From: a virus
Reading direction: 5' to 3' (one strand)
IMG/VR virus record: IMGVR_UViG_3300045988_136451
DNA: 64,000 nt
Shown piece after piece: positions 3,265 through 14,746 of the stretch. The notes under the pieces were generated by a model that was not told where the DNA came from, searched no databases, and saw only the letters and a program-made list of their open reading frames with translations. The translations under genes were made by a program, and so were the position numbers. Numbering within the stretch: the stretch's first letter is position 1; every line of letters begins with the position of its first letter.

Positions 3265-3312
3265 CTCGTGCGATCTTACCACATTCCTTCACTGTTGTCT
3301 TAACTTTTTCTC
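3265..3312 (-). promoter_or_regulatory. promoter cassette copy 1: AAGACA, 17 nt, extended -10 TGGTAAGAT
   Basis: Minus strand AAAAAGTTAAGACAACAGTGAAGGAATGTGGTAAGAT. Follows terminator 3373-3394 and precedes RBS plus GTG of gene 3056-3247. Confidence 0.55.
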
Positions 3313-3325
3313 TTAATTCTTTTTT

Positions 3326-3925
3326 TTACTTTCGTCTTTCCGCATCCTGTTGAAGAGCGGTGGAAAAGCAAAGGGGCGGCCCGATGGCCGCCCCTCTCAA
3401 TCGCCCTGAAGCCCCCCCCCGGCGCTGCTCTTCCAGCGCCTCGTCCACGCGCCTCTCGATGCGGCCTTCCACGAGCCAGCACACGACCTCCGGCACCGTG
3501 AACGGATTGGAGGCGTGCCCTCCCGTAACCTCGTCGTAGACCTTGGGCACGATGTCGAGCAGCACGCTGTAGTCGTGCAGCTCCGCAAGCACCTTCTCCT
3601 TCGAGAGCGCGCCGTCCTCGTCGGTCACGAGCCGCAGCCAGAACTCCTCGTCGAACTCGCGCCTTTCGCCCCGCTTCTTCTCCGCGACCGCGCGCCCGGT
3701 CGTGTGCTCCGTTCCGGGGAACGGCTCGAACGTCACCGTCCCGTCGCCCGACCCGTGCAGCACCGCCGCGCCCTCGTAGCAGCCGTTGCACACGTCCATG
3801 TGCGCGCCGACCGCGTACGGCTCCGTCCTCTGCCCCCATCCGTTGCGGTCGAGCCATACGGGCACCACAACGCCGACGCGGATGTCTCCGTGGCCGAACT
3901 CGCCTCCGCACACCTCGCACCTCAC
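3326..3925 (-). CDS. hypothetical protein (CEVCGG...CNGC); C-terminus set by a G9 homopolymer
   Basis: The long ORF 3326-4111 is trimmed to GTG 3925, just after the stop of the upstream gene. A G9 run (plus 3412-3420) lies 30 codons from the end. As sequenced, the frame reads through the terminator hairpin at 3373-3394. With G8 it would stop (TGA) immediately before the hairpin. Confidence 0.4.
   Translation of the reverse strand: MRCEVCGGEFGHGDIRVGVVVPVWLDRNGWGQRTEPYAVGAHMDVCNGCYEGAAVLHGSGDGTVTFEPFPGTEHTTGRAVAEKKRGERREFDEEFWLRLVTDEDGALSKEKVLAELHDYSVLLDIVPKVYDEVTGGHASNPFTVPEVVCWLVEGRIERRVDEALEEQRRGGASGRLRGAAIGPPLCFSTALQQDAERRK
3373..3394 (-). terminator. intrinsic terminator hairpin (GGGGCGGCC-ATCG-GGCCGCCCC + U-rich)
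   Basis: Perfect 9-bp GC stem, then TTTGCTTTTCC on the transcribed strand. Confidence 0.6.
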
Positions 3926-4899: not shown

Positions 4900-5188
4900 C
4901 GTCGTCCTCGCTTTCCATGGTTTTAGCTTCGTAGTCGATCGACATGGAGCACATGAGCTTGAATTCTCGTTCGCACACCGGGCACTCCGCCTCGTTTTCG
5001 TACTCGTCTCCGCTGATCCATCCTTCGCGATCTTCGTAATCGACTTCGAGGCGAGCGCCGCAATGCGGGCATTCGTCCGGCATGATGCGTATCCTAGCCC
5101 CGTCGAACGCCGGTGCGCTTGCAAGCGTTTCTATCTGCTCCATCGCGGCCGATTCGAGGTTCTGCGCGTATATTTTCAAGTCGCTCAT
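4883..5188 (-). CDS. small zinc-ribbon protein (CPHCG...CPVCE)
   Basis: 101-aa ORF with two CxxC pairs and an acidic composition. Confidence 0.45.
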   Translation of the reverse strand: MSDLKIYAQNLESAAMEQIETLASAPAFDGARIRIMPDECPHCGARLEVDYEDREGWISGDEYENEAECPVCEREFKLMCSMSIDYEAKTMESEDDGVLLG

Positions 5189-6360
5189 AGCGTGTTCTCC
5201 TTTTCAACAATTGCGATTCTTTCGCCAATCCATCGCATCACCGGAACTGCCATGCTGTTCCCCAGGGCCTTATAACGAGGAGCGTCGGGGCATTCGTCCG
5301 CAGACTTCCCGCGATAGGGTATGCGCGTCCATTCGTCGGGAAAGCCTTGAAGTCGCTCGCATTCGACTGGCATGAGGCGGCGAACCGATAGCCCCTGCGT
5401 TACGGAGGGCGGCATTCCGCCGCATTTGAGCGTTCCGGAGAGCTCTGTGTCGCACGCGGCATTCGCCGTATCGTCTGCCAGGCATATCACCGGTTCATTG
5501 CCCTCGATCAAAACGGCTCCGCCGTCATGGCCCCCGGTGGCGTTCGTGTAAAGGGTTTGATAGGCCCCTTCGCAATGGAACACGCGCGTCGATTGCGTAT
5601 CCCATTTGTTCAGGCAGCTGTCGTACACGACGGCTGGAACGTCAATCGTGTTCAGCGTATAGCTCACGCCTTCCTGGTTGTAGCCCACGCCGTTCTGCCC
5701 GAAGTGAGCGCCGCGCGCTATATCACCTTGGATGCAATATGGCTCTTCACAGTGCTTGCGAGCGCCGCGTAGAGCTGCGGCGGCAAGCTCCTTCCTTTTC
5801 TCCTTGCTCGATCCATGATTCCAGCGCAGGTCTTCGCCTTCAAAGAGTACTTCGGCGGCACGTTCCCCGTCACCAAGACAGCCGACAAGGAACACACGCT
5901 CGCGTCTTTGTGCCAGGTCGAAAAACTGCGCATCGAGTACTCTCCACGCCATACCGTACCCGCACGCATCCATTTCGGATAGGAGCTGTCCGAAAGCCGC
6001 CCCGCCTTCGCTCGACAACGCTCCCGGGACGTTCTCCCACACAAACCATCGTGGACGGATTGCACGAACCGCTCGTATGTACTCGAACATGAGGCCGGAT
6101 TCTCCGGCAAGCCCTTCGCGGTTTCCCGCGACGCTGAATGACTGGCATGGGCTTCCGCCTGCCACAAGGTCAATTGATCCAACTCTATCACTCCAATCAA
6201 TGCGCGTTATGTCGCCGAGGTTCGGAACGGACGGGAACCTCTCGTTAAGCACGGCGCACGCGAACGGATCTATCTCGGAGAACGCCACAGGCTCCCAGCC
6301 GAGCGGTTCCCACGCAACGCTCGCGGCCTCTATTCCGCTGAAAAGGCTGATGTACTTCAT
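5185..6360 (-). CDS. DNA (cytosine-5)-methyltransferase
   Basis: Start at MKYISLFSGIEA, with ATGA overlap to the upstream gene. Canonical C5-MTase motifs in the canonical order: FSGIEA (motif I), GGSPCQSFSVAG (PC motif IV), ENV (VI), QGFPDEW and RYKALGNSMAVPV (IX/X). Confidence 0.9.
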   Translation of the reverse strand: MKYISLFSGIEAASVAWEPLGWEPVAFSEIDPFACAVLNERFPSVPNLGDITRIDWSDRVGSIDLVAGGSPCQSFSVAGNREGLAGESGLMFEYIRAVRAIRPRWFVWENVPGALSSEGGAAFGQLLSEMDACGYGMAWRVLDAQFFDLAQRRERVFLVGCLGDGERAAEVLFEGEDLRWNHGSSKEKRKELAAAALRGARKHCEEPYCIQGDIARGAHFGQNGVGYNQEGVSYTLNTIDVPAVVYDSCLNKWDTQSTRVFHCEGAYQTLYTNATGGHDGGAVLIEGNEPVICLADDTANAACDTELSGTLKCGGMPPSVTQGLSVRRLMPVECERLQGFPDEWTRIPYRGKSADECPDAPRYKALGNSMAVPVMRWIGERIAIVEKENTL

Positions 6361-6716
6361 CGGGCACCCGCCTTCCTCGCCCTGCGCTTCTGTGCGGCCC
6401 ACTGGCTCACGGTCTTAACCGGCATCATGAGGCTTCGGGCCACGTGAGCCTCTAGCTGCGCGCCCTCGCTGCGCTCCCACCCGTCGAGCATCGCGAGGCC
6501 GTCGGCCTGCGCGATGATCGCCATGAGGGTGATCCGCATTGCCGCCGGCCACTTCTCGCCGGGTCGCACGTCCCAGTGCGGGATGCGGACGATGTAGCCG
6601 CACGCCGCCAGCTCGTCGGCTGCGGCCTCGAACGCCTCGCGGTTGTCGTTTGGCATGCCGATGAGTTCCAGCTTGTCGTCGCGGAACGTCTTGTCGATAT
6701 ACGCTATCTTAGGCAT
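6357..6716 (-). CDS. DUF4406-like (nucleoside 2-deoxyribosyltransferase-like fold) protein
   Basis: MPKIAYI...GMPNDNREAFEAA...LDGWERSEGAQLE matches the conserved pattern of the small phage DUF4406 proteins (GWE.S.GA..E). Domain assignment is from memory, not a search. Confidence 0.5.
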   Translation of the reverse strand: MPKIAYIDKTFRDDKLELIGMPNDNREAFEAAADELAACGYIVRIPHWDVRPGEKWPAAMRITLMAIIAQADGLAMLDGWERSEGAQLEAHVARSLMMPVKTVSQWAAQKRRARKAGAR

Positions 6717-7923
6717 CCTCGCCCTCCTTCTCCAAAAGCTCGTCGATCTCGTCCTGTATGAGGTGCATGCCGAGGAACCGCAGGCCGCTCGAATTGTCGA
6801 TGATCTCGCGCAGCTCGGCGCGCGCACGCTTCGACAGGCGCGGCTGCCCTTTGAGCCAGACGAGAATCTTCTTGTAGTCGCTCTTGCCGAAGGCGTTGAC
6901 GGCGGCCTCCCTGCTGGCGTTCGACGACACCTTCGCCTCCAAGCCCTCGAACTCGTCGAGCGCGTCGTCGGCGATGGCGATTATCTTGGAGACGATCTTG
7001 TTCTCCTCGTGGAACTCGCTCGCCTTGGCATCGCTGCCGAGCGCCTGCCACATGCCCTTGGTTCCGACGAACGTCCCCTCGCCGAGGCCGTTCTTCTCGA
7101 AGTAGTAGCGCTTGAAGCCCTCGCACTGGTCTTCGTCTATCTCGTCTAGGACGGAATCTGCGTCGGACACGTCCAGATGCTTCTCGTCGAACGAGTTGAC
7201 GAGCAGGCTCACGTCCCCGCACGACGTGAGGGCGCGGGCCGTAAGCTCCTTCAGCTCGTAGTGGTTGATCGCCTTGCGGTCTCGGTCGAGGCTCACGTGC
7301 TCCGGCAGGAAGTCGTAGCCGTACGCGAAGCCGGTGTCCTCCTGCACGAACAGGCCGCCGACGTAGAACTTTCCCTTGTAGCGGCTCTCCAACATGATCG
7401 TCCCGTACTCGCTCTCGCGTTTCGCGCCGATGTCGCGGCCCATGAAGCGTTCGAGGGCTATGAACCTGTCCCCGAAGGAGCGCATCATGGCGGGCGAGAT
7501 GCCGCCGATGCGGAACTCCGTGAACTCGCCGCCCGGAACGCCGGTCTCCTCCACGTCGATCTGCAACGATTCCTCGCCGAACGTCTCGGACAGGCGGAAC
7601 TCCGGTGTCCAAGTCTCCGCGTCGGTGACGACCTTCACCGGCTTGCGCTCGCGCGTCAGCACCAGAAGCGCCAGCTTGTATCCCTCGCCGTACTTCCCGA
7701 TGTAGCGCTCGTCGTCCTTGCCCGATTCGCCGAGCAGGAGCGTCGATGTCTTCAGTCGCGCGCCGTCGGTGAGAATGGACAGCGTTTCGCGGTCGTACGA
7801 CACGGACACCTCCGCCCCGTCCGCCTTCTGGTCGATGGCGTTCTGCAAAATCTCGCGGACTGCCTCCTCCACGCCCCAGCCGCTCACGTACTTGGGCGAC
7901 AGGCTCAACTCGATGGTCTTCAT
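6709..7923 (-). CDS. GHKL/Bergerat-fold ATPase domain protein
   Basis: N-terminal EAVREILQNAIDQ (N-box, ExxxNAxD), LTDGARL (D-G box) and GKYGEGYK (G2 box). ATG is preceded by RBS AAGGAGG and palindromic motif 7938-7953. Confidence 0.5.
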   Translation of the reverse strand: MKTIELSLSPKYVSGWGVEEAVREILQNAIDQKADGAEVSVSYDRETLSILTDGARLKTSTLLLGESGKDDERYIGKYGEGYKLALLVLTRERKPVKVVTDAETWTPEFRLSETFGEESLQIDVEETGVPGGEFTEFRIGGISPAMMRSFGDRFIALERFMGRDIGAKRESEYGTIMLESRYKGKFYVGGLFVQEDTGFAYGYDFLPEHVSLDRDRKAINHYELKELTARALTSCGDVSLLVNSFDEKHLDVSDADSVLDEIDEDQCEGFKRYYFEKNGLGEGTFVGTKGMWQALGSDAKASEFHEENKIVSKIIAIADDALDEFEGLEAKVSSNASREAAVNAFGKSDYKKILVWLKGQPRLSKRARAELREIIDNSSGLRFLGMHLIQDEIDELLEKEGEDA

Positions 7924-7937
7924 GGCCCTCCTTGCTC

Positions 7938-7953
7938 TCGATTAAATAATCGG
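7938..7953 (-). promoter_or_regulatory. AT-rich palindromic motif (CCGATTATTTAATCGA) upstream of GHKL ATPase gene
   Basis: Minus strand CCGATTATTTAATCGA-GAGCAAGGAGGGCC-ATG; arms CGATTA/TAATCG. Confidence 0.55.
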
Positions 7954-7954
7954 C

Positions 7955-8010
7955 CTTGACCCATCTTACCACAAGCCTTAACTCTTGTCTTAACTTTTTC
8001 TTTCTTTTTT
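7955..8010 (-). promoter_or_regulatory. promoter cassette copy 2: TTAAGACA, spacer, TGTGGTAAGAT
   Basis: ~90% identical over ~45 nt to copies at 3265-3312 and 12076-12128. Located between terminator 8027-8050 and palindromic motif 7938-7953. Confidence 0.55.
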
Positions 8011-8026
8011 TATCTTACAAAAGAAA

Positions 8027-8050
8027 AGGGGAGGGCTTGTGGCCCTCCCC
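8027..8050 (-). terminator. intrinsic terminator hairpin (GGGGAGGGC-CACAA-GCCCTCCCC + UUUUCUUUUG)
   Basis: 9-bp stem followed by a U-run, just after the stop of gene 8052-8372. Confidence 0.6.
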
Positions 8051-8051
8051 G

Positions 8052-8372
8052 TCACCACGCCGTCTGCCTGCGGAACGGGCATCTCGTCCGGGCGCACGAC
8101 TTCCTCGCCACCTCGACGGCGCAGCACGTGTTCGCCTGATCTCCGCACATAGGGGACGCCACGTGCCAGCCGGGGCCTAGAACCGTTTCGGCCAGCCGGT
8201 CGAGGGCGGCCTGCGCGTCGGTCGGCTGCGGCATGATGCCGTAGTCCCCGCCGTTGCCGGTCGCCCCGCTTTCGTCAACGAACGAGAGCGTGATCTGATA
8301 CCCTCTGTTTATGTTGTCCATCTGCTGGTCGAAGTCCTTCTTCTCCATCTTGGTCGGGAACTTCGCCTCCAT
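8052..8372 (-). CDS. hypothetical protein
   Basis: Trimmed to MEAKFPTKMEKK. Followed by an intrinsic terminator hairpin at 8027-8050. Confidence 0.35.
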   Translation of the reverse strand: MEAKFPTKMEKKDFDQQMDNINRGYQITLSFVDESGATGNGGDYGIMPQPTDAQAALDRLAETVLGPGWHVASPMCGDQANTCCAVEVARKSCARTRCPFRRQTAW

Positions 8373-8389
8373 GCTCCCGCATGCCGCCG

Positions 8390-9091
8390 TCACCCTTCGC
8401 ATGCCCCTCCTATCTCCTCCAACGTCCTGCGCTTCATGTTGCCAAGCACCTCCTCCATGGCGACGAGCCGCCGCCAGCAGTCTGGCAGGTTCTCCTTGAT
8501 CGCGCGCAGTTCCTTCTGGTTCTTGTTCTTGCAGCACCAGCACGACACCCTGTCCAAGATGTCGTACAGGCGCACGCCGTCCTGCTCCCACTCATGGCCG
8601 TGGGCGTAGCACGCGGCGAGGCAGTCGGCCTCGCGCATGCCCCAGTCAGCGAGCGGGAAGCGCTTGTAGGGCTTGCGCTCCTTTTCGAGGCGCGCCGTCT
8701 CGTCTGCGGCTATGCCGACGTACACGGTCGCCCCCCCCAGCTCCCTCTCCGCATGGCGGTCTATCGCCCGCAGCTTCTCGGTCGTGCCCCAGCGGCACGG
8801 GCCGCCGCACCAGCCGTAGCCGTGCTTGTGGACTTCGCCGGTCTTCCGGCTTTTGACCGGGCGGCAGAACATGCTCCACCAGAACGGGTCTTTGGGGCGC
8901 AGCTCGACGTAGCGGATGCCGTTCTCGCGCAGCAGCGGCAGCATGCGGTCGCGCTCGGCGTAGATCGCGTCGAACTCCATGCCCGTGTCGTAGAAGACAA
9001 CCTCGTCGAGCGGCATGCCGCGCTCGATCAGGCCGTGCAGCATGGCGAGGCTGTCCTTGCCCCAGCTGACGCTTGCGATGCAGCGCTTCAT
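8390..9091 (-). CDS. PAPS reductase / PP-loop ATP pyrophosphatase family protein
   Basis: Start MKRCIASVSWGKDSLAML; SWGKDS is the PP-loop (SGGKDS) motif. Contains an in-frame G8 run (plus 8731-8738). Family assignment is by motif. Confidence 0.75.
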   Translation of the reverse strand: MKRCIASVSWGKDSLAMLHGLIERGMPLDEVVFYDTGMEFDAIYAERDRMLPLLRENGIRYVELRPKDPFWWSMFCRPVKSRKTGEVHKHGYGWCGGPCRWGTTEKLRAIDRHAERELGGATVYVGIAADETARLEKERKPYKRFPLADWGMREADCLAACYAHGHEWEQDGVRLYDILDRVSCWCCKNKNQKELRAIKENLPDCWRRLVAMEEVLGNMKRRTLEEIGGACEG

Positions 9092-9093
9092 GG

Positions 9094-9252
9094 CTACCCT
9101 TCCCTCTCGTCGGCGCGCCTGCGCCTCGCGGCCCTCTTGTCCTGCTCGGCCTTGCACTCCGGGCCGCAGTATTTCTGGTTGCGGGAGTTCTTCGCGAACG
9201 TCCTCCCGCACACCGGGCACGTCCCCGTGCCGCGCGCCTTCCAACCGGTCAT
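9094..9252 (-). CDS. small zinc-ribbon protein (CPVCG...CGPEC)
   Basis: 52 aa. ATGA overlap with the upstream gene. Confidence 0.45.
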   Translation of the reverse strand: MTGWKARGTGTCPVCGRTFAKNSRNQKYCGPECKAEQDKRAARRRRADEREG

Positions 9253-9632
9253 CCCTCGCTCCTCTCCCTCGGCATCCCTCCACGGTAAAGCCCCGCCTCC
9301 TTCAGTCGGCGCAGGGCGAGCCGCTGCCTCGCGTTGCACCGCCCTAGGGCGCAGTCGTTCCACACGGCCACGCACCGGGTCATCTCGCACAGAGCGTCCA
9401 TGCACCCGCAGGCGGGCAGCACGTCCCACGCCTGACCCTGCTCGACGAAGCCGCGCAGGCGCATCAGCTTGCGGACGAGCCATTCCTGATGCGACGGGAC
9501 GGCGTAGTGCGGCGTTCCTCCCTCGTCGATGCACACCTCCAAGTAGTTCACGAAGGTCGCCTTGTGCGTCTCGATGTCGAAGGGGGAGCGCAGCACGCGC
9601 TGCTGCTCCGACGCTCCGGGGAGGCTACTCAT
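9249..9632 (-). CDS. hypothetical protein
   Basis: 127-aa ORF, same strand, overlapping its neighbours by a few nt. Confidence 0.45.
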   Translation of the reverse strand: MSSLPGASEQQRVLRSPFDIETHKATFVNYLEVCIDEGGTPHYAVPSHQEWLVRKLMRLRGFVEQGQAWDVLPACGCMDALCEMTRCVAVWNDCALGRCNARQRLALRRLKEAGLYRGGMPRERSEG

Positions 9633-10051
9633 CGTCCGTCTCCGTGGTCATCCAGTCCTCGACGCTGCCAAGCTCGTCTGCGGCGCACAGGATGCGCGCG
9701 AAGGGGTACTCCGGCACCTCCATGTCGCCAGCCGCCTCCAAGCCGATCACGTCGTTCAGGAGGTCGTTCGCCTCCGTGACGGCGGCGCGCCAGTCCTTCT
9801 GCGCATCGACGCTCCCGTAGGTCGCCTCGAAGATGTCGGGCTTCACGGGGTACAGCTCCCCCTTGATGCCCTTCACGATGTAGTCGCCCTTGCGCGCCGT
9901 CATGCTCCCTTCGAGCGTGCGCACCTTCGCCTCGCCGTCCGGGGTCAGGCGCAGAACGCCGCTCTCGAACGCGACGTGCCCCCCACTCCGGGGTCGCCTC
10001 CTCGCCGTAGCGCCACGCCTCGATCTCCAACGGCTTCTTCCTGTACCTCAT
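9625..10051 (-). CDS. conserved small phage protein, interrupted by a frameshift at a G6 run
   Basis: ATG at 10051 sits 5 nt after a perfect AGGAGG and encodes MRYRKKPLEIEAWRYGEEATPEW. After a G6 run (plus ~9979-9984) the sensible continuation (GHVAFESGVLRLTPDGEAKVRTLEGSMTARKGDYIVKG..., the ORF 9625-9924) is in the -1 frame. G5 would give one ~140-aa protein. Confidence 0.45.
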
Positions 10052-10218
10052 CGCCCCTCCTCGTTTTCGCACTCGTCGCATCTGTCGCTCGTCGGCTCGT
10101 AGTCTCTTATCCCCAAGTCGAGCCAGTCGCGCAAGATGCGCAGCTTGCGCGTGTCGGGTTCCTCGGGGATGACGGCCTCGTAGCGGCCTCTCTCGTCTTC
10201 CAGCTCAATTCTCGGCAT
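10048..10218 (-). CDS. hypothetical small acidic protein
   Basis: 56 aa from MPRIELEDERG; RBS AGGAG 9 nt upstream. Confidence 0.4.
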   Translation of the reverse strand: MPRIELEDERGRYEAVIPEEPDTRKLRILRDWLDLGIRDYEPTSDRCDECENEEGR

Positions 10219-10231
10219 GTCGGCGCTCCTC

Positions 10232-10453
10232 TCAATCAGTCTCGTACCGCTTGATGTCCTCGCGCCAGCGCAGCTCGTCTCCGAACCCAACGCCCTCAAG
10301 CTCGCCCGTGGAGACCACGCGCCCCTCGTCGTCCAGAGGGTACAGCGCCGTGTTGCCGTCGAACAGCGACACGACGGCTATGCGGTGCTTCAGCGTGAGG
10401 GCGGTCAGGTCTTCGAGGAACGCCGCAGCGTCCCTCGCGTCAGTCGTCCCCAT
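10232..10453 (-). CDS. hypothetical protein
   Basis: 73-aa ORF. Confidence 0.4.
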   Translation of the reverse strand: MGTTDARDAAAFLEDLTALTLKHRIAVVSLFDGNTALYPLDDEGRVVSTGELEGVGFGDELRWREDIKRYETD

Positions 10454-10733
10454 CGCAGCCGCCCTTCGGCTCGTCGAGCGCGGCCTGCGCGTCGCGCAGA
10501 GCGTCGGCGACCATGCGCCCCATGCGCCTAGCCCAGCAGAACAGCAGGAAGGCGCACAGCACGAGGAACGAGGCGTAGCACAGGAAGCCCCATGCCGCCC
10601 CGAACATCACGCCAGCGCCTATGGAGCCTACCAGCCCCGCAGCTCCGAACAGCAGGCCTCCCAGCAGCCACGAGCAGCCGATCAGCGCGTCCTCGTCCTT
10701 CTCGCTCTTGTCCACGTCGAACTCCATCCTCAT
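10440..10733 (-). CDS. small membrane protein (two predicted TM helices)
   Basis: Hydrophobic segments LIGCSWLLGGLLFGAAGLVGSIGAGVMFGAAWGFLCYASFLVLCAFLLFCW. Confidence 0.45.
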   Translation of the reverse strand: MRMEFDVDKSEKDEDALIGCSWLLGGLLFGAAGLVGSIGAGVMFGAAWGFLCYASFLVLCAFLLFCWARRMGRMVADALRDAQAALDEPKGGCDGDD

Positions 10734-11122
10734 CGCTCGCCCTCCGGCTCCGTCGGCAGCTCAATCCACCTCTTGCAGTTCTCCACGTTCTGGTCGAACG
10801 ACAGCAGCACGTCGTCCCAGCCCTCCCCGTCGGGCGGAGGGCCGAAGCTGCAAGACACCCCGGTCTCGTGCCTCTCCCCCGTGATCGTCATGACGTAGGA
10901 CAGGCGCGGCTCCTCCGCCCCGTCGCGCTTCAGCACGTCGAAGGCGTACTCGATGCCTATGGGCGTTCCAAGCCTCGCCTCCTCGCGCACCTTGGCGCGC
11001 ATGCGCTCGACGACGGCCACGAACTCGTCCGGCACCCCCGCCTCGCGCATCTCCTTCTTCCACGCCCTCGGCCCCGGCTCAACGCCGGGGACGTACCGCT
11101 GCATGCTGACCGGCCCTTCCAT
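10730..11122 (-). CDS. hypothetical protein
   Basis: Trimmed to MEGPVSMQRY. TGATG overlap with the upstream stop. Confidence 0.4.
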   Translation of the reverse strand: MEGPVSMQRYVPGVEPGPRAWKKEMREAGVPDEFVAVVERMRAKVREEARLGTPIGIEYAFDVLKRDGAEEPRLSYVMTITGERHETGVSCSFGPPPDGEGWDDVLLSFDQNVENCKRWIELPTEPEGER

Positions 11123-11397
11123 CACAGCCCCTTCCTGTGCTCGTCGTCGAGGCGCGCGTACTCCCTGCGCTCCTTCTGCGTCGATGCGCGCAGGCACGCC
11201 TCGGCCTCCTCGTCCGACACGTCGAGGCCGATGCCGTCGGGCGTGCGGAGGACGATGCGGCGCAGCCCGTTCTTCAGCGTGTACTTCATGTAGACCTTGA
11301 CCGGCGTTCCCTCCGGCGTGACCACGGGCGCGCCGTCCTCCCCGTAGGTGGTCAGGTCGCAGTCGAGGGCGTAGACGCTCCCCATGCGCTTAGTCAT
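11122..11397 (-). CDS. hypothetical protein
   Basis: Trimmed to MTKRMGSVYALDCDL. Confidence 0.4.
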   Translation of the reverse strand: MTKRMGSVYALDCDLTTYGEDGAPVVTPEGTPVKVYMKYTLKNGLRRIVLRTPDGIGLDVSDEEAEACLRASTQKERREYARLDDEHRKGL

Positions 11398-11884
11398 CGG
11401 CCCCTCCGATCTCCGCGTAGCAGCCGGGCCGCCAGCGCTCGCCCTCCACGTCCTCGGGCAGCGGCGCAACGGGGCGGATGTGCCCGTGCGAGACGTGCAG
11501 CATGTCGCAGCGGTTGCCCAGCGGCTTCAGCTCCTCCATGGCGCGAAGGGCGCGCCGCACGGTCTCCGGCAGCTTGCGCGCGTCGTCGCGCACGCCGACC
11601 GAGATGCGCAGGGAGCGACCATCGAACGGTATGCCCTCGTACGGGCCGACGGCACCGCCGCATGACAGCTGCGCGCAGAACTCGACCGTCGTGCGCATCT
11701 CCTCGCCCTCGATCTCCCCGGACGTGCTGCCGTAAAGAAGGTAGCCGCCGATCTTGCCGTTGCCCTTCGCCTCGCGCAGCATGTTCGAGCAGCGGCGCAC
11801 GGCATCGACGCTCTCGTCGTCGTCGATGCCGAACGCCTCCAAGAAGCGCTTGGCCTCCTTCAGCTCCTTGCCGTTGCCTCTCAC
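11390..11884 (-). CDS. hypothetical protein
   Basis: The track ORF (to 12085) runs through a promoter. A GTG at 11884 is preceded by RBS AAAGGAG and palindromic motif 11900-11915. Confidence 0.4.
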   Translation of the reverse strand: MRGNGKELKEAKRFLEAFGIDDDESVDAVRRCSNMLREAKGNGKIGGYLLYGSTSGEIEGEEMRTTVEFCAQLSCGGAVGPYEGIPFDGRSLRISVGVRDDARKLPETVRRALRAMEELKPLGNRCDMLHVSHGHIRPVAPLPEDVEGERWRPGCYAEIGGADD

Positions 11885-11899
11885 TCGCCGTCTCCTTTC

Positions 11900-11915
11900 T
11901 CGATTAAATAATCGG
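11900..11915 (-). promoter_or_regulatory. AT-rich palindromic motif upstream of gene 11390-11884
   Basis: CCGATTATTTAATCGA-GAAAGGAGACGGCGA-GTG. Confidence 0.55.
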
Positions 11916-12075
11916 GCCGTCGTGCTCGCCTTCGTCGGCCACAAGGCACTTGTCGTCCCCCGTCGGCGACGTAGACGAGGAACATGGCGCTCGCGCGCAA
12001 TACCTCCTTCTCGTCCCCGTCGCCCATGCCCGTGATGCTGATCTCCAAAACGGTCTCCTTCCGCTCGGTTTCGCG

Positions 12076-12128
12076 ATACGGTCATCTTACCACAAGTCTT
12101 ACACTTTTGTCTTAACTTTTTCTTTTAC
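12076..12128 (-). promoter_or_regulatory. promoter cassette copy 3 (CTTGTGGTAAGAT)
   Basis: Minus strand AAAAAGTTAAGACAAAAGTGTAAGACTTGTGGTAAGATG. The GT(T/G)TAAGA(C/T) element recurs three times at ~11-nt phasing. Confidence 0.55.
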
Positions 12129-12129
12129 A

Positions 12130-12311
12130 AACAGCGGAGGGCGCTCCCGTCCGACGGCTGAAGGGCTTCCGGCCTTTACGCGAGTTCGCCATCTGCGCTC
12201 CGATGTCGAGCGAGCCGTCACCGGCAAGGTAGCCATCGCTTTCCAGCGCCGCGTCTTGACCGCATGGGGATACGGGCGCGTGCGCGTCGCAGCCGTCGGA
12301 GAGGAGCGCCC
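12130..12311 (-). ncRNA. candidate structured non-coding RNA (no convincing ORF) flanked by 24-nt inverted repeats
   Basis: ~180-nt gap between gene 12320-12727 and promoter 12084-12125. Arms plus 12137-12160 and 12290-12313 are reverse complements (22 of 24). On the minus strand the right arm is followed by CGCUGUUUGU. The palindromic motif 12312-12327 sits at its 5' side. Confidence 0.25.
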
Positions 12312-12327
12312 TCGATTATTTAATCGG
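12312..12327 (-). promoter_or_regulatory. AT-rich palindromic motif overlapping stop of 12320-12727, upstream of the candidate ncRNA
   Basis: CCGATTAAATAATCGA, with the TAA stop inside the motif. Confidence 0.5.
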
Positions 12328-12727
12328 CGTTCGGGCGCTTCGCCACGGCAAGCGACAGAGCGTCCTCCAACAGCCCCAGCGGCGACCTCCCCGGCCAGCG
12401 CTCCGCAACCTTGTCGAGGTTGACAAGGGCCTCCATCACGATGCCGTCGGTCGTGACTATCGCCTGCTGCTGCACGACGGGCTGGCCGTCCTCGCCGACC
12501 TCGCCCGTCGGGTTCGCCCGCTGGATGCTCTGCACCGTCATGCGGTCGCCTCTGCCCGACAGCGCGCGCCACGCCCCGTCGAACGCCTCGGCGGGCGCGG
12601 TGAGCGACAGCCCGCAACCGACGCACGCGATGCGCGCGAGCGCGTCTCCCCGCACGGAGCGCCCCCAGTCCGTCGCGTCCGTCATGTCCAGCTTCCCGCC
12701 GCACAGCGGGCACCTGCTCTCCTCCAT
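12320..12727 (-). CDS. zinc-ribbon protein (CPLCGG...CVGCG)
   Basis: 135-aa ORF. Its TAA stop lies inside palindromic motif 12312-12327. Confidence 0.45.
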   Translation of the reverse strand: MEESRCPLCGGKLDMTDATDWGRSVRGDALARIACVGCGLSLTAPAEAFDGAWRALSGRGDRMTVQSIQRANPTGEVGEDGQPVVQQQAIVTTDGIVMEALVNLDKVAERWPGRSPLGLLEDALSLAVAKRPNAD

Positions 12728-12742
12728 CGTCGGTCTCCTCTC

Positions 12743-13141
12743 CTAGTAGTCGTCCCTGACCGCCGCGCAGGCCTTGCCGACCTTCAGCGCGACCTCCACG
12801 GCGCTTCCGCCCGCCTCCTTCTCCGCAGCCTCCGCGCGCATCGAGCGCGCCCACGCCAGCATGTCGGCGCAGAACTCCGCGCACCGCGCGTCGTCGAACG
12901 GCAGCGGCAGGTCGCGGCTGAAGCTGTGGCGGCGCGGCACCGGGTTGGGCAGCCTCACCGACGCTTCCTTCTCCGACACCTCGACGAAGCCCTTGCGCAG
13001 GCCCGTCTCCCTCGCCGCCTCGCACGCCTTCATCGCCACGTGCGCCAGAGACGGGCTTCCCGCCTCCATGGCCGCCTCGTACGCGTCGAACGGCTTGTCC
13101 TTCCGCTCGAACTCCATCCTTATGGCCCGCGTCACCTTCAT
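12743..13141 (-). CDS. hypothetical protein
   Basis: 132-aa ORF. Confidence 0.45.
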   Translation of the reverse strand: MKVTRAIRMEFERKDKPFDAYEAAMEAGSPSLAHVAMKACEAARETGLRKGFVEVSEKEASVRLPNPVPRRHSFSRDLPLPFDDARCAEFCADMLAWARSMRAEAAEKEAGGSAVEVALKVGKACAAVRDDY

Positions 13142-13237
13142 GGCAGCGCCTCCTTCCCACCGGCTGCTGCCGGTAAGCCTGTCTCCGAAACCCCGTTTTC
13201 AGGTCTCGACTGCTAATGTGTTTGCCTTAGCGTCCGA

Positions 13238-13636
13238 TCATGCTCCCGTTTCTGCCGATCTATCGACAGGACAGGGCACGTCGCGCCCGTCGGCGCGGAA
13301 GGGCCGCCAGACCCCTGCGGCGCGCCTCCACTCGCAGTCGGCAAGCTCCTTCGGAACGTCGTCCCACTGCCGCCAGTCGTCCGGGTCGTGGCGCGCCCAG
13401 AACTCCGACAGGTCGTAGTCCGCGCCCTCCGGGAGGTAGGGGAGCATGGGCGCTGGCCCTAAGTACTCCCCTACCAGCCTCACGGCGCGCTGGCACATGT
13501 CCGCCGCTCCCTTGGCGTAGGCCGCCCGCACCTCGTCGCGCGTCTCGTGGTACTGCTCCCGCTGGCGCATGAGGTGGTACTGAACCGTCATCGCGTCGCG
13601 CACCGTCGCCGCCGTCTGCCTCTGCTTCTTTCCCAT
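13238..13636 (-). CDS. hypothetical protein
   Basis: 132-aa ORF. Confidence 0.45.
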   Translation of the reverse strand: MGKKQRQTAATVRDAMTVQYHLMRQREQYHETRDEVRAAYAKGAADMCQRAVRLVGEYLGPAPMLPYLPEGADYDLSEFWARHDPDDWRQWDDVPKELADCEWRRAAGVWRPFRADGRDVPCPVDRSAETGA

Positions 13637-13648
13637 CGTCGTTTCCCT

Positions 13649-14092
13649 TCACCATCGTATTCCGTGCGCCGCGCGGCGCTTCAGCTCGCCCTCGAACACC
13701 GCTTTCAACGCTTCATGCCATGTGCCGAACGACGCGTACCATCCTCCGATGTGCTCCGACGGCGGCTCCTTCGGCAGCTCCATGATCTCGCCCAGCAGCC
13801 AATCGGAGGACGGGAGCCTTTTGAGCAGGTCGAGTATCGTCGAGCGGCCCATCATGGTCACGGGCTGGTAGCCGCCCTTCCATACCTCCCATTCCGACAC
13901 CCCTCCGTCGCGCCTGAAGAACCGGTCGAAGCGCTCCTTCGTTCCGGGGCTTCCGCGCCGTCGGCGAGCATGCGGCAGTCCGTGCGCCGGTCGATTGCCG
14001 GAGTTGGTGCGAACGCCGAGCGACGCTATGCGGTCGAGCACGCGTTCGTCGCGGTCGATCATGTCGTCGATGAAGTCGTCTGCCGCGCTCAC
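13649..14092 (-). CDS. hypothetical protein
   Basis: 147-aa ORF. Confidence 0.45.
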   Translation of the reverse strand: MSAADDFIDDMIDRDERVLDRIASLGVRTNSGNRPAHGLPHARRRRGSPGTKERFDRFFRRDGGVSEWEVWKGGYQPVTMMGRSTILDLLKRLPSSDWLLGEIMELPKEPPSEHIGGWYASFGTWHEALKAVFEGELKRRAAHGIRW

Positions 14093-14104
14093 GTCTGCCC
14101 CTCC

Positions 14105-14290
14105 CTACTCGAACGCAGCGTCGCGGGAAGCGTCAACCATGTCGTCGTAGTGCATGGCCTCGCGCTCCTCGAACCGCTCCCAGTACGCGCTCGCCTCGGC
14201 CTCGTACTCCTCGTAGGTGTCGAAGTCCTCCGGGTCTGGCTGGTTCTCCTCTGCCCTCATGCGGGCGTAGGCTGCTGTGAGGTTCGCCAT
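14105..14290 (-). CDS. small acidic hypothetical protein
   Basis: 61 aa. ATG preceded by RBS AAGGAG and palindromic motif 14306-14321. Confidence 0.35.
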   Translation of the reverse strand: MANLTAAYARMRAEENQPDPEDFDTYEEYEAEASAYWERFEEREAMHYDDMVDASRDAAFE

Positions 14291-14305
14291 TGTCTCTGCT
14301 CCTTC

Positions 14306-14321
14306 TCGATTATTTTATCGA
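14306..14321 (-). promoter_or_regulatory. AT-rich palindromic motif (TCGATAAAATAATCGA) upstream of gene 14105-14290
   Basis: TCGATAAAATAATCGA-GAAGGAGCAGAGACA-ATG. Confidence 0.55.
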
Positions 14322-14383
14322 CTGGGAACAGACTATCACAAATATGCTATTGTTAAAAGAAGAATTAAGAAAAAAACTAAGAT

Positions 14384-14746
14384 TTATAGATTCTGCACGG
14401 CTTCGTGCATGGCCCGCTCCATGTCGGAAGGCCCCCATACGACGAGCTGCCCCGCGCCGTCTAGGAACAAGACGGCCTCTTGGCAGCGGTCGGGAAGATG
14501 CTCCATGAGGCGCTGCACGGCCTGCCATCCTCCGCGCGCGAGCGCGTCGCGCACGGCCATGTCTATGTCTCGCTGCTCTAGCACGCCGTCTATCAGGTGG
14601 TCTAGCCCTTCGTGCTTCAGCGCCTCCCACATGCCGAACGCGTCGCCCTCCTCCTCGGCGATTCTCTCGACAAGGAGCGCCGCCGCACGGCGCTCCTCTG
14701 CGGCGCGCATGTTGTTCCTCTGCACGTGCGTCAGCCCCGCAGCCAT
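14384..14746 (-). CDS. hypothetical protein
   Basis: 120 aa. A terminator hairpin overlaps the last codons (14394-14409) and is followed by a T7 run. Confidence 0.45.
   Translation of the reverse strand: MAAGLTHVQRNNMRAAEERRAAALLVERIAEEEGDAFGMWEALKHEGLDHLIDGVLEQRDIDMAVRDALARGGWQAVQRLMEHLPDRCQEAVLFLDGAGQLVVWGPSDMERAMHEAVQNL
14394..14409 (-). terminator. hairpin (TGCACG-AAGC-CGTGCA) overlapping the last codons of gene 14384-14746, followed by a T7 run
   Basis: 6-bp stem. Downstream minus strand reads AATCTATAAATCTTAGTTTTTTTC. Confidence 0.4.

What the first reader, a model, noticed from the sequence alone, without database searches (positions are those of the whole stretch)
12130..12327. Gene-free ~180-nt segment flanked by 24-nt inverted repeats: candidate structured sRNA
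Arms 12137-12160 and 12290-12313 pair 22 of 24 (CAGCCGTCGGAxxGGAGCGCCCTC). The 5' side carries a palindromic motif copy with its TAAAAT-like core. The 3' side ends in a U-rich stretch just before promoter cassette copy 3. The only internal ORFs are 15 and 45 codons of Arg/Gly-rich junk. The long closing helix would bring the 5' and 3' ends together, as in regulatory sRNAs or attenuator-like elements. A recombination site is also possible.
Basis: seen in the sequence. Interest (0 to 1): 0.55.

Follow-up and report, generated by a model that had tools for sequence, protein, structure and literature searches.

The report
Orphan inverted-repeat RNA element, phage operon end
A real, non-coding 177-base segment closed by a 24-base-pair inverted repeat ends one gene block of a gut Eggerthella phage, where sister sites carry an ordinary terminator hairpin; it probably shapes the end of the messenger RNA, but it is dispensable, has no relatives elsewhere, and is not shown to be a regulatory RNA.

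Summary
Arms 12137-12160 and 12290-12313 pair at 22 of 24 positions, the best inverted repeat in the 64-kb window; block shuffles reach only 18-20 of 24.

The window is a close relative of Eggerthella phage LE2-3, and all genes here run on the minus strand. The element follows the stop codon of a 135-aa gene and precedes a sigma-70-like promoter cassette. The other two copies of that cassette have a canonical terminator hairpin in this slot.

The segment is non-coding:
- It shows no GC3 periodicity.
- It carries a 1-nt indel polymorphism.
- Its open frame has no protein homologues.

It matches no Rfam family, and its sequence was found only in LE2-3-like genomes. The 129-nt interior is no more structured than shuffled sequence. 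Relatives are about 99% identical, so covariation is uninformative. Natural variants lack the 5' arm or the whole element.

Best reading (about 0.4): a co-transcribed long-range RNA helix at an operon end, acting as a terminator-like, 3'-protective or RNase III-type structure. It may have arisen by insertion into a terminator. The sRNA idea is neither confirmed nor excluded. Interest is low to moderate.

The parts
12313..12326 (-). Near-palindromic 14-mer CGATTAAATAATCG. It overlaps the TAA stop of the 135-aa gene and abuts the 5' arm.
   Evidence: The motif CGATTAWWTAATCG occurs 9 times in the window against 0.13 expected. Most copies sit just 5' of a Shine-Dalgarno sequence plus start codon. 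Here the inverted-repeat arm follows in place of an SD.
12290..12313 (-). 5' arm of the closing helix; minus-strand RNA GAGGGCGCUCCUCUCCGACGGCUG.
   Evidence: Identical in all intact copies among the LE2-3-like genomes examined, apart from the transition-rich contig L033. Deleted in the natural variant L035.
12161..12289 (-). 129-nt interior: non-coding and not unusually structured. Predicted hairpins are H1 at 12246-12285 (CCCC loop) and GCCG-GUGA-CGGC at 12214-12225.
   Evidence: Fold z = +1.5 (minus strand) and +0.7 (plus strand) against shuffles. GC by codon phase is 0.61/0.78/0.71, against 0.86-0.96/0.65-0.72/0.45-0.53 in flanking genes.
12195..12203 (-). Interior segment UCGGAGCGC, a partial third copy of the arm. 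It can pair with the 5' arm as a transient alternative helix.
   Evidence: Prefix folding at 145 nt shows GCGCUCC of the 5' arm paired with this segment before the 3' arm is made.
12172..12177 (-). Mutation hot spot: six alleles, including a 1-nt indel, among genomes that are otherwise about 99% identical here.
   Evidence: and P0015. The indel breaks any reading frame across the element.
12137..12160 (-). 3' arm of the closing helix; minus-strand RNA CAGCCGUCGGACGGGAGCGCCCUC. It can also form a weak local hairpin.
   Evidence: local hairpin -11 kcal/mol; long-range duplex -50 kcal/mol.
12126..12136 (-). Degenerate U-rich tail CGCUGUUUGUA.
   Evidence: Read. It is not called a terminator by the consensus scan. 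It lines up with the T-tracts that follow the canonical terminators of cassette copies 1 and 2.
12080..12125 (-). Promoter cassette copy 3: AAAGTTAAGA box, -35-like AAGACA, TGG-TAAGAT extended -10. It starts the next transcription unit.
   Evidence: The same cassette is present in distant relatives L008 and L009.

Best explanation
The element is a non-coding segment specific to the LE2-3-like phages. It is transcribed as the 3' end of the five-gene minus-strand unit that ends with the 135-aa gene (12320-12727).

Proposed mechanism: once the 3' arm is made, it pairs with the 5' arm made about 150 nt earlier, giving a 24-bp helix of about -50 kcal/mol. That helix sits directly in front of a weak U-tract and the next early-type promoter.

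Proposed role: the helix does what a simple terminator hairpin does at the two sister cassettes. It marks and insulates the operon end in one or more of three ways: partial termination, blocking 3' exonucleases, or cleavage by RNase III (24 bp is the right length for a substrate). A by-product would be a ~150-190-nt RNA derived from the 3' UTR.

What is shown: the helix, its position in the terminator slot, the non-coding nature, and the dispensability.

What is inferred: transcription through the element, termination or processing at the helix, and accumulation of any RNA species.

Origin: the outer 11 bp (GAGGGCGCUCC/GGAGCGCCCUC) resemble the stem of the sister terminators. The element may therefore have arisen by insertion of about 155 nt into a terminator loop.
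For: 1. The inverted repeat is real and unique in 64 kb. The duplex energy is -50 kcal/mol, and the minus strand has one extra G-U pair.
2. All neighbouring genes are on the minus strand. No promoter or terminator lies between the 135-aa gene's stop codon and the element.
3. Cassette copies 1 (3276-3354) and 2 (7963-8040) are each immediately preceded by a canonical GC hairpin plus T-tract, at -26 and -21 kcal/mol. At copy 3 the closing helix and the tail CGCUGUUUGU occupy that same slot.
4. The segment is not coding.
5. The element is intact in 15 genomes examined (the window, LE2-3 and 13 metagenome contigs), while both flanking genes vary. The 135-aa gene is only 57-80% identical at protein level, and the downstream 102-aa gene is cut down to 55 aa.
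6. From established knowledge: RNA duplexes of about 20 bp or more are RNase III substrates, and phage T7 early mRNAs are processed at intercistronic hairpins. This is an inference, not tested here.
Against: - The U-tract is poor and starts after the stem, and the consensus scan calls no terminator.
- A 129-nt 'loop' is far outside normal terminator geometry.
- The interior shows no excess structure.
- There is no covariation. Conservation is no higher than the 95-100% background identity of this shallow clade.
- Variant L035 lacks the 5' arm. The P0009 lineage, with contigs up to 117.5 kb, lacks the whole element plus cassette 3. The element is therefore not essential.
- Folding energies do not favour the minus strand over the plus strand.
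- No transcript data were available.
Confidence: 0.4

Rival explanations
1. The element is a relic of a foreign insertion: a MITE-like, non-autonomous element with terminal inverted repeats that landed in or next to a terminator. The RNA helix would then be a passive consequence and the element would have no selected function now.
For: - A 24-bp near-perfect terminal inverted repeat around an unstructured, non-coding interior of MITE-like size.
- Present only in one shallow clade and absent from distant relatives (L008, L009, L025, L028), which carry other genes in this slot.
- It lies in a deletion-prone accessory region and is itself dispensable.
- The two mismatches sit at the boundary between the outer 11 bp, which resemble a terminator stem, and the inner 12 bp.
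Against: - No second copy was found anywhere. The arms gave only single-arm chance hits in one genome per 185,579 species.
- IMG/VR returned only the same phage contig, and phages and plasmids gave nothing.
- No target-site duplication is visible at the ends (sequence).
- No transposase is annotated in LE2-3.
- The genome scan needed an exact 19-nt arm, so diverged copies would have been missed.
Confidence: 0.28
2. The element is a stand-alone, trans-acting phage RNA: a regulatory sRNA, or a decoy or sponge that counters a host defence. It would be released by a start or cleavage at the palindromic motif and by the closing helix.
For: - The palindromic motif abuts the 5' arm in the position where it normally precedes a gene start, so the element fills a 'gene slot'.
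- The H1 loop carries UCCCC, an anti-Shine-Dalgarno-like C-rich loop. The comparison with Gram-positive sRNAs is from memory.
- The neighbourhood looks like an accessory or anti-defence locus. The adjacent 135-aa zinc-ribbon gene is hypervariable and has a sub-threshold Lar match. Distant relatives carry a gene with a precomputed Pfam Gad2 hit in this slot.
- The phage encodes RtcB elsewhere.
- The six-allele hot spot could be a specificity determinant.
Against: - No Rfam match.
- No complementarity to other phage transcripts in the window beyond what shuffles give.
- The interior is not structured beyond chance, and there is no covariation.
- No recognisable promoter lies upstream.
- The element is dispensable in natural genomes.
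Confidence: 0.15
3. The element acts at the DNA level: an invertible segment (inverton), a recombination site, paired operators for DNA looping, or a replication or packaging signal.
For: - Inverted repeats of about 20-25 bp around 130-300 bp are the anatomy of invertible promoters in gut bacteria (from memory).
- The repeat is equally good on both strands at the DNA level.
- The region is recombination- and deletion-prone.
Against: - All 15 intact copies are in the same orientation.
- No promoter-like site lies inside the element.
- No invertase, integrase or recombinase is annotated in LE2-3.
- Cumulative GC skew is monotonic, so there is no origin-like switch.
- Cruciform extrusion with a 129-bp spacer is implausible.
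Confidence: 0.07
4. The segment encodes a small protein.
For: - One minus-strand frame is open across the whole element, from the TAA inside the palindromic motif to the TAA in the cassette (67 codons).
- ATG ORFs of 15, 26 and 45 codons exist.
Against: - No codon-position GC periodicity, unlike every neighbouring gene.
- The open frame has no start codon before codon 42.
- The 1-nt indel polymorphism shifts all frames.
- phmmer against 1.84 billion representatives gave one marginal hit to a 1601-aa protein, matched in five separate stretches (E = 2.3e-4).
- LE2-3 annotates no gene here.
Confidence: 0.02

Closest known systems
Intrinsic (Rho-independent) terminators, as found before the sister promoter cassettes of this same phage
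   Same: A GC-rich helix at the end of a transcription unit, directly upstream of the same promoter cassette. The outer stem GAGGGC...GCCCUC and the tail ..UGUUUGUAA line up with GGGGAGGGC...GCCCUCCCC UUUUCUUUUGUAA of cassette copy 2.
   Different: The loop is 129 nt rather than 4-5 nt, the stem is 24 bp rather than 9, and the U-tract is degenerate and offset. The element fails the terminator scan.
Correia (CREE/NEMIS) elements of Neisseria and similar bacterial MITEs (ERIC, RUP). The comparison is from memory.
   Same: Intergenic elements of about 100-180 bp with terminal inverted repeats of about 25 bp. They are co-transcribed with neighbouring genes, and their RNA hairpin is an RNase III target that alters mRNA fate.
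   Different: Those elements are present in tens to hundreds of copies with a target-site duplication. Here there is a single copy in a phage, no duplication, and no other copy in any collection searched.
RNase III processing stalks: phage T7 intercistronic R sites, and the long-range helices flanking 16S and 23S rRNA. From established knowledge.
   Same: A long-range or local duplex of about 20 bp or more between cistrons that brings together the sequences flanking a segment to be excised.
   Different: No cleavage data exist. T7 sites are compact hairpins of about 60 nt with an internal loop, and there is no sequence similarity.
3'-UTR-derived bacterial sRNAs (CpxQ, SroC type)
   Same: An RNA lying between a stop codon and the operon-end structure, which would share its 3' end with the mRNA.
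   Different: There is no evidence of a stable species, of a conserved seed, or of targets.
Invertible promoters (invertons) of gut bacteria
   Same: Inverted repeats of about 20-25 bp bracketing a short non-coding segment.
   Different: Only one orientation is seen in 15 genomes, there is no internal promoter, and no invertase is annotated.

Membership tests
Intrinsic terminator | GC-rich stem directly at the end of a transcription unit | tested here: met
   A 24-bp helix of -50 kcal/mol lies after the stop codon of the 135-aa gene. It occupies the slot taken by canonical terminators at cassettes 1 and 2.
Intrinsic terminator | Short loop (3-8 nt) and a run of at least 5 U in the 8 nt directly after the stem | tested here: not met
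   The loop is 129 nt and the tail is CGCUGUUUGU. The scan of 11000-14500 found no terminator-like site.
MITE / Correia-like element | Terminal inverted repeats bounding a short non-coding element | tested here: met
   A 24-nt terminal inverted repeat bounds a 177-nt element with no coding signal.
MITE / Correia-like element | Multiple copies in a host or phage genome | tested here: not met
   There is one copy in the window and one in LE2-3. The exact-arm scan of 185,579 species genomes gave only nine single-arm chance hits. IMG/VR returned only the same contig. The scans were exact-match only, so diverged copies are not excluded.
MITE / Correia-like element | Target-site duplication flanking the element | tested here: not met
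   The flanks ...AAUAAUC| and |CGCUGUU share no direct repeat (sequence).
Any Rfam family (riboswitches, ribozymes, 6S, Y/YrlA, SRP, tmRNA and others) | Covariance-model score at or near the gathering threshold | tested here: not met
   No hits at gathering thresholds over 64 kb. With permissive filters there were only two chance hits at E = 2 and 4.8. ARAGORN found no tRNA or tmRNA.
Conserved structured RNA (generic) | Compensatory base changes that preserve helices | tested here: inconclusive
   None of 65 predicted pairs covaries, because the helices are invariant. The relatives are about 99% identical.
Conserved structured RNA (generic) | Folding energy below that of shuffled sequence | tested here: inconclusive
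   The whole element gives z = -2.9 (minus strand) and -3.4 (plus strand), driven by the closing helix. The interior alone gives z = +1.5 and +0.7.
RNase III processing site | dsRNA helix of about 20 bp or more in a transcript | tested here: met
   22 Watson-Crick pairs plus 1 G-U across 24 positions on the mRNA strand. Transcription is inferred from gene orientation.
RNase III processing site | Staggered cleavage in the helix, in vivo or in vitro | not testable with these tools
   Needs 5'/3'-end mapping or an enzyme assay.
Inverton | Both orientations present in populations, with an invertase nearby | tested here: not met
   All 15 genomes with an intact copy are collinear. No recombinase is annotated in LE2-3. 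Read-level data were not examined.
Retron ncRNA (msr-msd) | Inverted repeats a1/a2 with an adjacent reverse transcriptase gene | tested here: not met
   An inverted repeat is present, but none of the ten neighbouring proteins has an RT domain in Pfam or PHROGs.
Small protein gene | Conserved ORF with the genome's codon bias | tested here: not met

The most novel reading that the evidence does not exclude
The element could be a phage-made RNA that is excised by cleavage of its 24-bp closing stalk. It might even be ligated or circularised, since the phage carries an RtcB RNA ligase. It would act as a decoy or sponge against a host defence, from an anti-defence island whose neighbours are a hypervariable Lar-like zinc-ribbon gene and, in relatives, a gene with a Pfam Gad2 hit in this slot. 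The six-allele hot spot would then be its specificity determinant, or alternatively a CRISPR-escape site.
Probability: 0.07. Interest if true: 0.7.

Novelty: new member of a known kind. Interest (0 to 1): 0.27.

Why it matters
Little is known about transcript architecture in phages of Coriobacteriia from the human gut. If the reading is right, this is a small but concrete example of an operon-end signal built from a long-range helix instead of a simple hairpin. It may also record how a terminator was remodelled by an insertion.

The practical value is modest. The element marks the boundary between two transcription units in an accessory, deletion-prone region of LE2-3-like phages. Natural deletion variants (L035 and the P0009 lineage) give ready-made controls for testing it.

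It would matter more only if a stable RNA with a trans-acting or anti-defence role were demonstrated.

Tried and rejected
- **Rfam and ARAGORN:** the Rfam gathering search and the permissive search and ARAGORN found nothing.
- **Distant homologues for covariation:**
  - Neighbour-protein searches, all 12 contig look-ups, the JGI metagenome scan and the IMG/VR scans gave only copies about 99% identical, or relatives with no element (L008, L009, L024, L025, L028).
  - RNAalifold therefore found no covarying pair.
- **MITE test:** the exact-arm scan of GTDB species genomes gave only chance single-arm hits. Phage and plasmid blastn found nothing.
- **Coding test:** GC3 periodicity, the indel and a phmmer search of the open frame all reject coding.
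- **Trans-target search:** complementarity to other minus-strand transcripts in the window is no better than for shuffled sequence.
- **Pseudogene test:** the interior shows no homology to the genes in this slot in L008 and L009, so a decayed-gene origin is not supported; only the palindromic motif matched.
- **Neighbour function:**
  - Pfam and PHROGs on ten neighbours gave only sub-threshold Lar and holin-like hits.
  - An AlphaFold model of the 163-aa neighbour (pLDDT 68.5) had no PDB fold match with E below 0.1.
- **Conservation argument dropped:** the element looked ultra-conserved next to a gene only 57-80% identical at protein level. A sliding identity profile showed the whole clade is 95-100% identical, with mosaic divergent patches.
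- **L033 set aside:** 82 of its 89 differences from the window are A>G or T>C.
- **Literature:** no paper mentioning LE2-3 was found.

Full report
**1. Observation**

The inverted repeat exists exactly as described. Arms 12137-12160 and 12290-12313 are 24 nt long, match at 22 of 24 positions, and lie 129 nt apart.

It is the best inverted repeat with arms at most 400 nt apart in the whole 64-kb window. A direct count finds one pair with at least 22 of 24 matches in the real sequence. Eight block shuffles gave none, with a best of 18-20 of 24.

On the minus strand the RNA helix has 22 Watson-Crick pairs, one G-U and one C-C mismatch. Its duplex energy is about -50 kcal/mol.

The flanking details also hold:
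- The near-palindromic 14-mer at 12313-12326 overlaps the upstream stop codon.
- The tail CGCUGUUUGUA is modestly U-rich.
- The promoter cassette lies at 12080-12125.
- ATG ORFs of 15 and 45 codons exist, plus one of 26 codons.

**2. Context**

The window is 98% identical to Eggerthella phage LE2-3. LE2-3 is a 112-kb myovirus (tail-sheath and baseplate genes are annotated) isolated from activated sludge on E. lenta DSM 2243. It annotates nothing between its genes LE23_139 and LE23_140. All genes in this region run on the minus strand.

Read 5' to 3' on that strand, the layout is:
- a five-gene unit that starts at the AT-rich island near 14306-14406 and ends with a 135-aa zinc-ribbon gene (12320-12727);
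- the palindromic motif;
- the 177-nt element;
- the U-rich tail;
- promoter cassette 3, with -35-like AAGACA and TGG-TAAGAT;
- a 55-aa ORF;
- a second motif copy;
- a 163-aa gene.

The 55-aa ORF is a deletion derivative of a 102-aa gene that is intact in L011 and L012.

The same promoter cassette occurs at 3276-3354 and 7963-8040. In both places a canonical terminator immediately precedes it: a 9-12-bp GC hairpin of -26 or -21 kcal/mol, followed by a T-tract.

At copy 3 the closing helix occupies that slot. Its outer stem and tail (GAGGGC...GCCCUC CGCUGUUUGUAA) line up with copy 2 (GGGGAGGGC...GCCCUCCCC UUUUCUUUUGUAA). The tail fails a consensus terminator scan.

**3. Not coding**

- Flanking genes show strong GC periodicity by codon position: 0.86-0.96 / 0.65-0.72 / 0.45-0.53. 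The element shows 0.61 / 0.78 / 0.71 on the minus strand and nothing better on the plus strand.
- One frame is open across the element but has no start codon before codon 42.
- A phmmer search of that frame against 1.84 billion representative proteins gave a single marginal hit to a 1601-aa protein, matched in five separate stretches.
- A 1-nt indel polymorphism inside the element shifts every frame.

**4. Not a known RNA, and the interior is not specially structured**

Rfam gave no hit at gathering thresholds over the whole window. Under permissive settings it gave only two chance hits. ARAGORN found nothing.

The 206-nt region folds better than shuffles, with z = -2.9 on the minus strand and -3.4 on the plus strand. 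That signal comes from the closing helix. The 129-nt interior alone folds worse than dinucleotide shuffles, with z = +1.5 and +0.7; background 129-nt windows average -0.5.

Hairpins predicted repeatedly are H1, with a CCCC loop, and GCCG-GUGA-CGGC. Prefix folding shows that an interior segment, UCGGAGCGC, can pair transiently with the 5' arm.

**5. Comparative evidence**

Relatives were collected through homologues of the two flanking proteins, twelve contig look-ups, and IMG/VR and JGI scans. Counting the window and LE2-3, 15 genomes carry the intact element.

The arms are identical in every intact copy except the transition-rich contig L033. Variation is limited to four scattered substitution sites and one hot spot.

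RNAalifold finds 65 pairs and none covaries. The element looked ultra-conserved next to a gene only 57-80% identical at protein level. A sliding identity profile removed that impression: the whole clade is 95-100% identical, with mosaic divergent patches. No conservation argument can therefore be made.

More distant relatives lack the element:
- L008, L009 and L025 carry a gene with a precomputed Pfam Gad2 hit, an 83-aa zinc-ribbon gene, the promoter cassette and thyX in this region.
- L028 is a low-GC relative with 75% RecA identity. It has nothing similar.

No other copy was found anywhere:
- Exact-arm scans of one genome per 185,579 species gave only single-arm chance hits.
- IMG/VR scans returned only the same phage contig.
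- Phage and plasmid blastn found nothing beyond LE2-3.

**6. Dispensability**

Three natural variants bear on this:
- L035 carries a 58-nt deletion between GCGCCCG repeats. It removes the stop codon, the motif and the whole 5' arm, and it fuses the 135-aa ORF into the remnant.
- Protein P0009 is seen on three contigs of up to 117.5 kb. It joins residue 96 of the 135-aa protein to the C-terminus of the 91-aa protein. This implies a deletion of about 1.2 kb that removes the element, cassette 3 and the 163-aa gene.
- The LE2-3 record lacks window positions of about 4918-11560, with the junction 576 nt downstream of the element.

This is a plastic accessory region, and the element is not essential.

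**7. Interpretation**

The only feature beyond chance is a very stable long-range helix on the transcribed strand, sitting in the terminator slot of an operon boundary.

My best explanation (about 0.4) is that it acts at the RNA level as an operon-end structure. It would give partial termination, 3'-end protection, RNase III-type processing, or some combination. It may have originated by insertion of about 155 nt into a terminator loop, and it may release a ~150-190-nt RNA derived from the 3' UTR. Transcription, cleavage and RNA accumulation are all inferred, not shown.

The rivals are:
- a MITE-like relic with no present function (about 0.28);
- a trans-acting or anti-defence RNA (about 0.15);
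- a DNA-level site such as an inverton (about 0.07), disfavoured because all 15 intact copies are collinear, there is no internal promoter, and no recombinase is annotated;
- a small protein (about 0.02).

No complementarity to other phage transcripts exceeds the shuffle level. Neighbour proteins gave no functional lead.

**8. Comparison with known systems, and verdict**

The element works most like an intrinsic terminator or an intercistronic processing hairpin. In anatomy it most resembles Correia-type MITEs, which are co-transcribed and cut by RNase III.

It fails defining tests for each family:
- loop size and U-tract, for a terminator;
- copy number and target-site duplication, for a MITE;
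- covariance-model score, for any Rfam family.

It is best filed as an orphan new example of a known kind of thing. Interest is low to moderate (0.27).

Noticed in passing
window 12172-12177 (plus an insertion after 12177): A mutation hot spot inside the element. There are six alleles on the minus strand (A-AAGGCC, A-GAGGCC, AGAAGGCC, AGAGGGTC, AAATGGTC, ATAGGGTC) among genomes about 99% identical over the rest of the 177 nt. On the plus strand these are positions 3-9 after a TTC at 12167-12169. That is where the seed of a type I-C protospacer would lie. E. lenta has an active I-C system with a 5'-TTC PAM (bioRxiv 10.1101/2022.05.20.492479). It may be a CRISPR-escape site; no spacer match was tested.
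   Followed up: partly
window 3044, 7939, 11901, 12313, 14307, 22666, 26355, 45385, 49474 (14-mers); L028 17890-18010 and 19370-19422: The near-palindromic motif CGATWAWWTAATCG(AGA) occurs 9 times against 0.13 expected. Most copies lie just 5' of a Shine-Dalgarno sequence and start codon, sometimes right after a promoter -10; two copies lie inside structural genes. A low-GC distant relative uses a related motif, TCAATAAAWTAATTGAGA, in tandem before promoters and gene starts. It is probably an operator or a promoter or processing signal of this phage group.
   Followed up: partly
window 12540-12720 (N-terminal half of the 135-aa gene 12320-12727): This stretch is only about 60% identical at nucleotide level between genomes that are 96-100% identical on both sides; the protein is 42-99% identical across the family. 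It has a CxxC...CxxC zinc ribbon with a sub-threshold Pfam Lar (restriction alleviation) match. It looks like an arms-race gene.
   Followed up: partly
window 11881-12048: The 55-aa ORF annotated in LE2-3 (LE23_140) is a deletion and frameshift derivative of a 102-aa gene that is intact in L011 and L012. Its GC3 is only 0.70, so it is probably a pseudogene.
   Followed up: yes
window ~4918-11560 versus MW679026 positions 111961/1-40: The LE2-3 GenBank record lacks about 6.6 kb that is present in the window. This would account for most of the gap between LE2-3 (112 kb) and the 117-118-kb metagenome contigs. The junction coincides with the record's origin and creates the joined CDS LE23_141. It is either a real deletion in the isolate or an assembly or circularisation artefact.
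   Followed up: partly
L033 (OAUV01002772.1), whole 3.3-kb locus: 82 of the 89 differences from the window are A>G or T>C transitions, spread over the whole contig. This is either a hypermutation-like signature or a library artefact.
   Followed up: partly
window 3298, 7988, 12110 (minus strand); 15495, 25402, 25415, 31353, 31366, 33530 (plus strand): The box AAAGTTAAGA occurs 9 times against 0.63 expected, in both orientations, and always in the AT-rich islands between transcription units. It is probably a regulator-binding or UP-like element of the phage promoters.
   Followed up: partly
L008 718-1299, L009 1624-2205; L008 1659-2285, L025 28-660: In distant relatives, the slot downstream of the 135-aa homologue holds a gene with a precomputed Pfam Gad2 hit, followed by a cassette-driven thyX (Thy1). 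The LE2-3 clade has the element and the 102-aa gene there instead.
   Followed up: no
L028 17760-17890: The low-GC relative has a non-coding stretch of about 130 nt. It holds a small hairpin and a canonical terminator (ACCCTGGTAAG...CTTACCAGGGT plus a T run) just before its motif array and promoter. It may be a 3'-UTR RNA there too.
   Followed up: no
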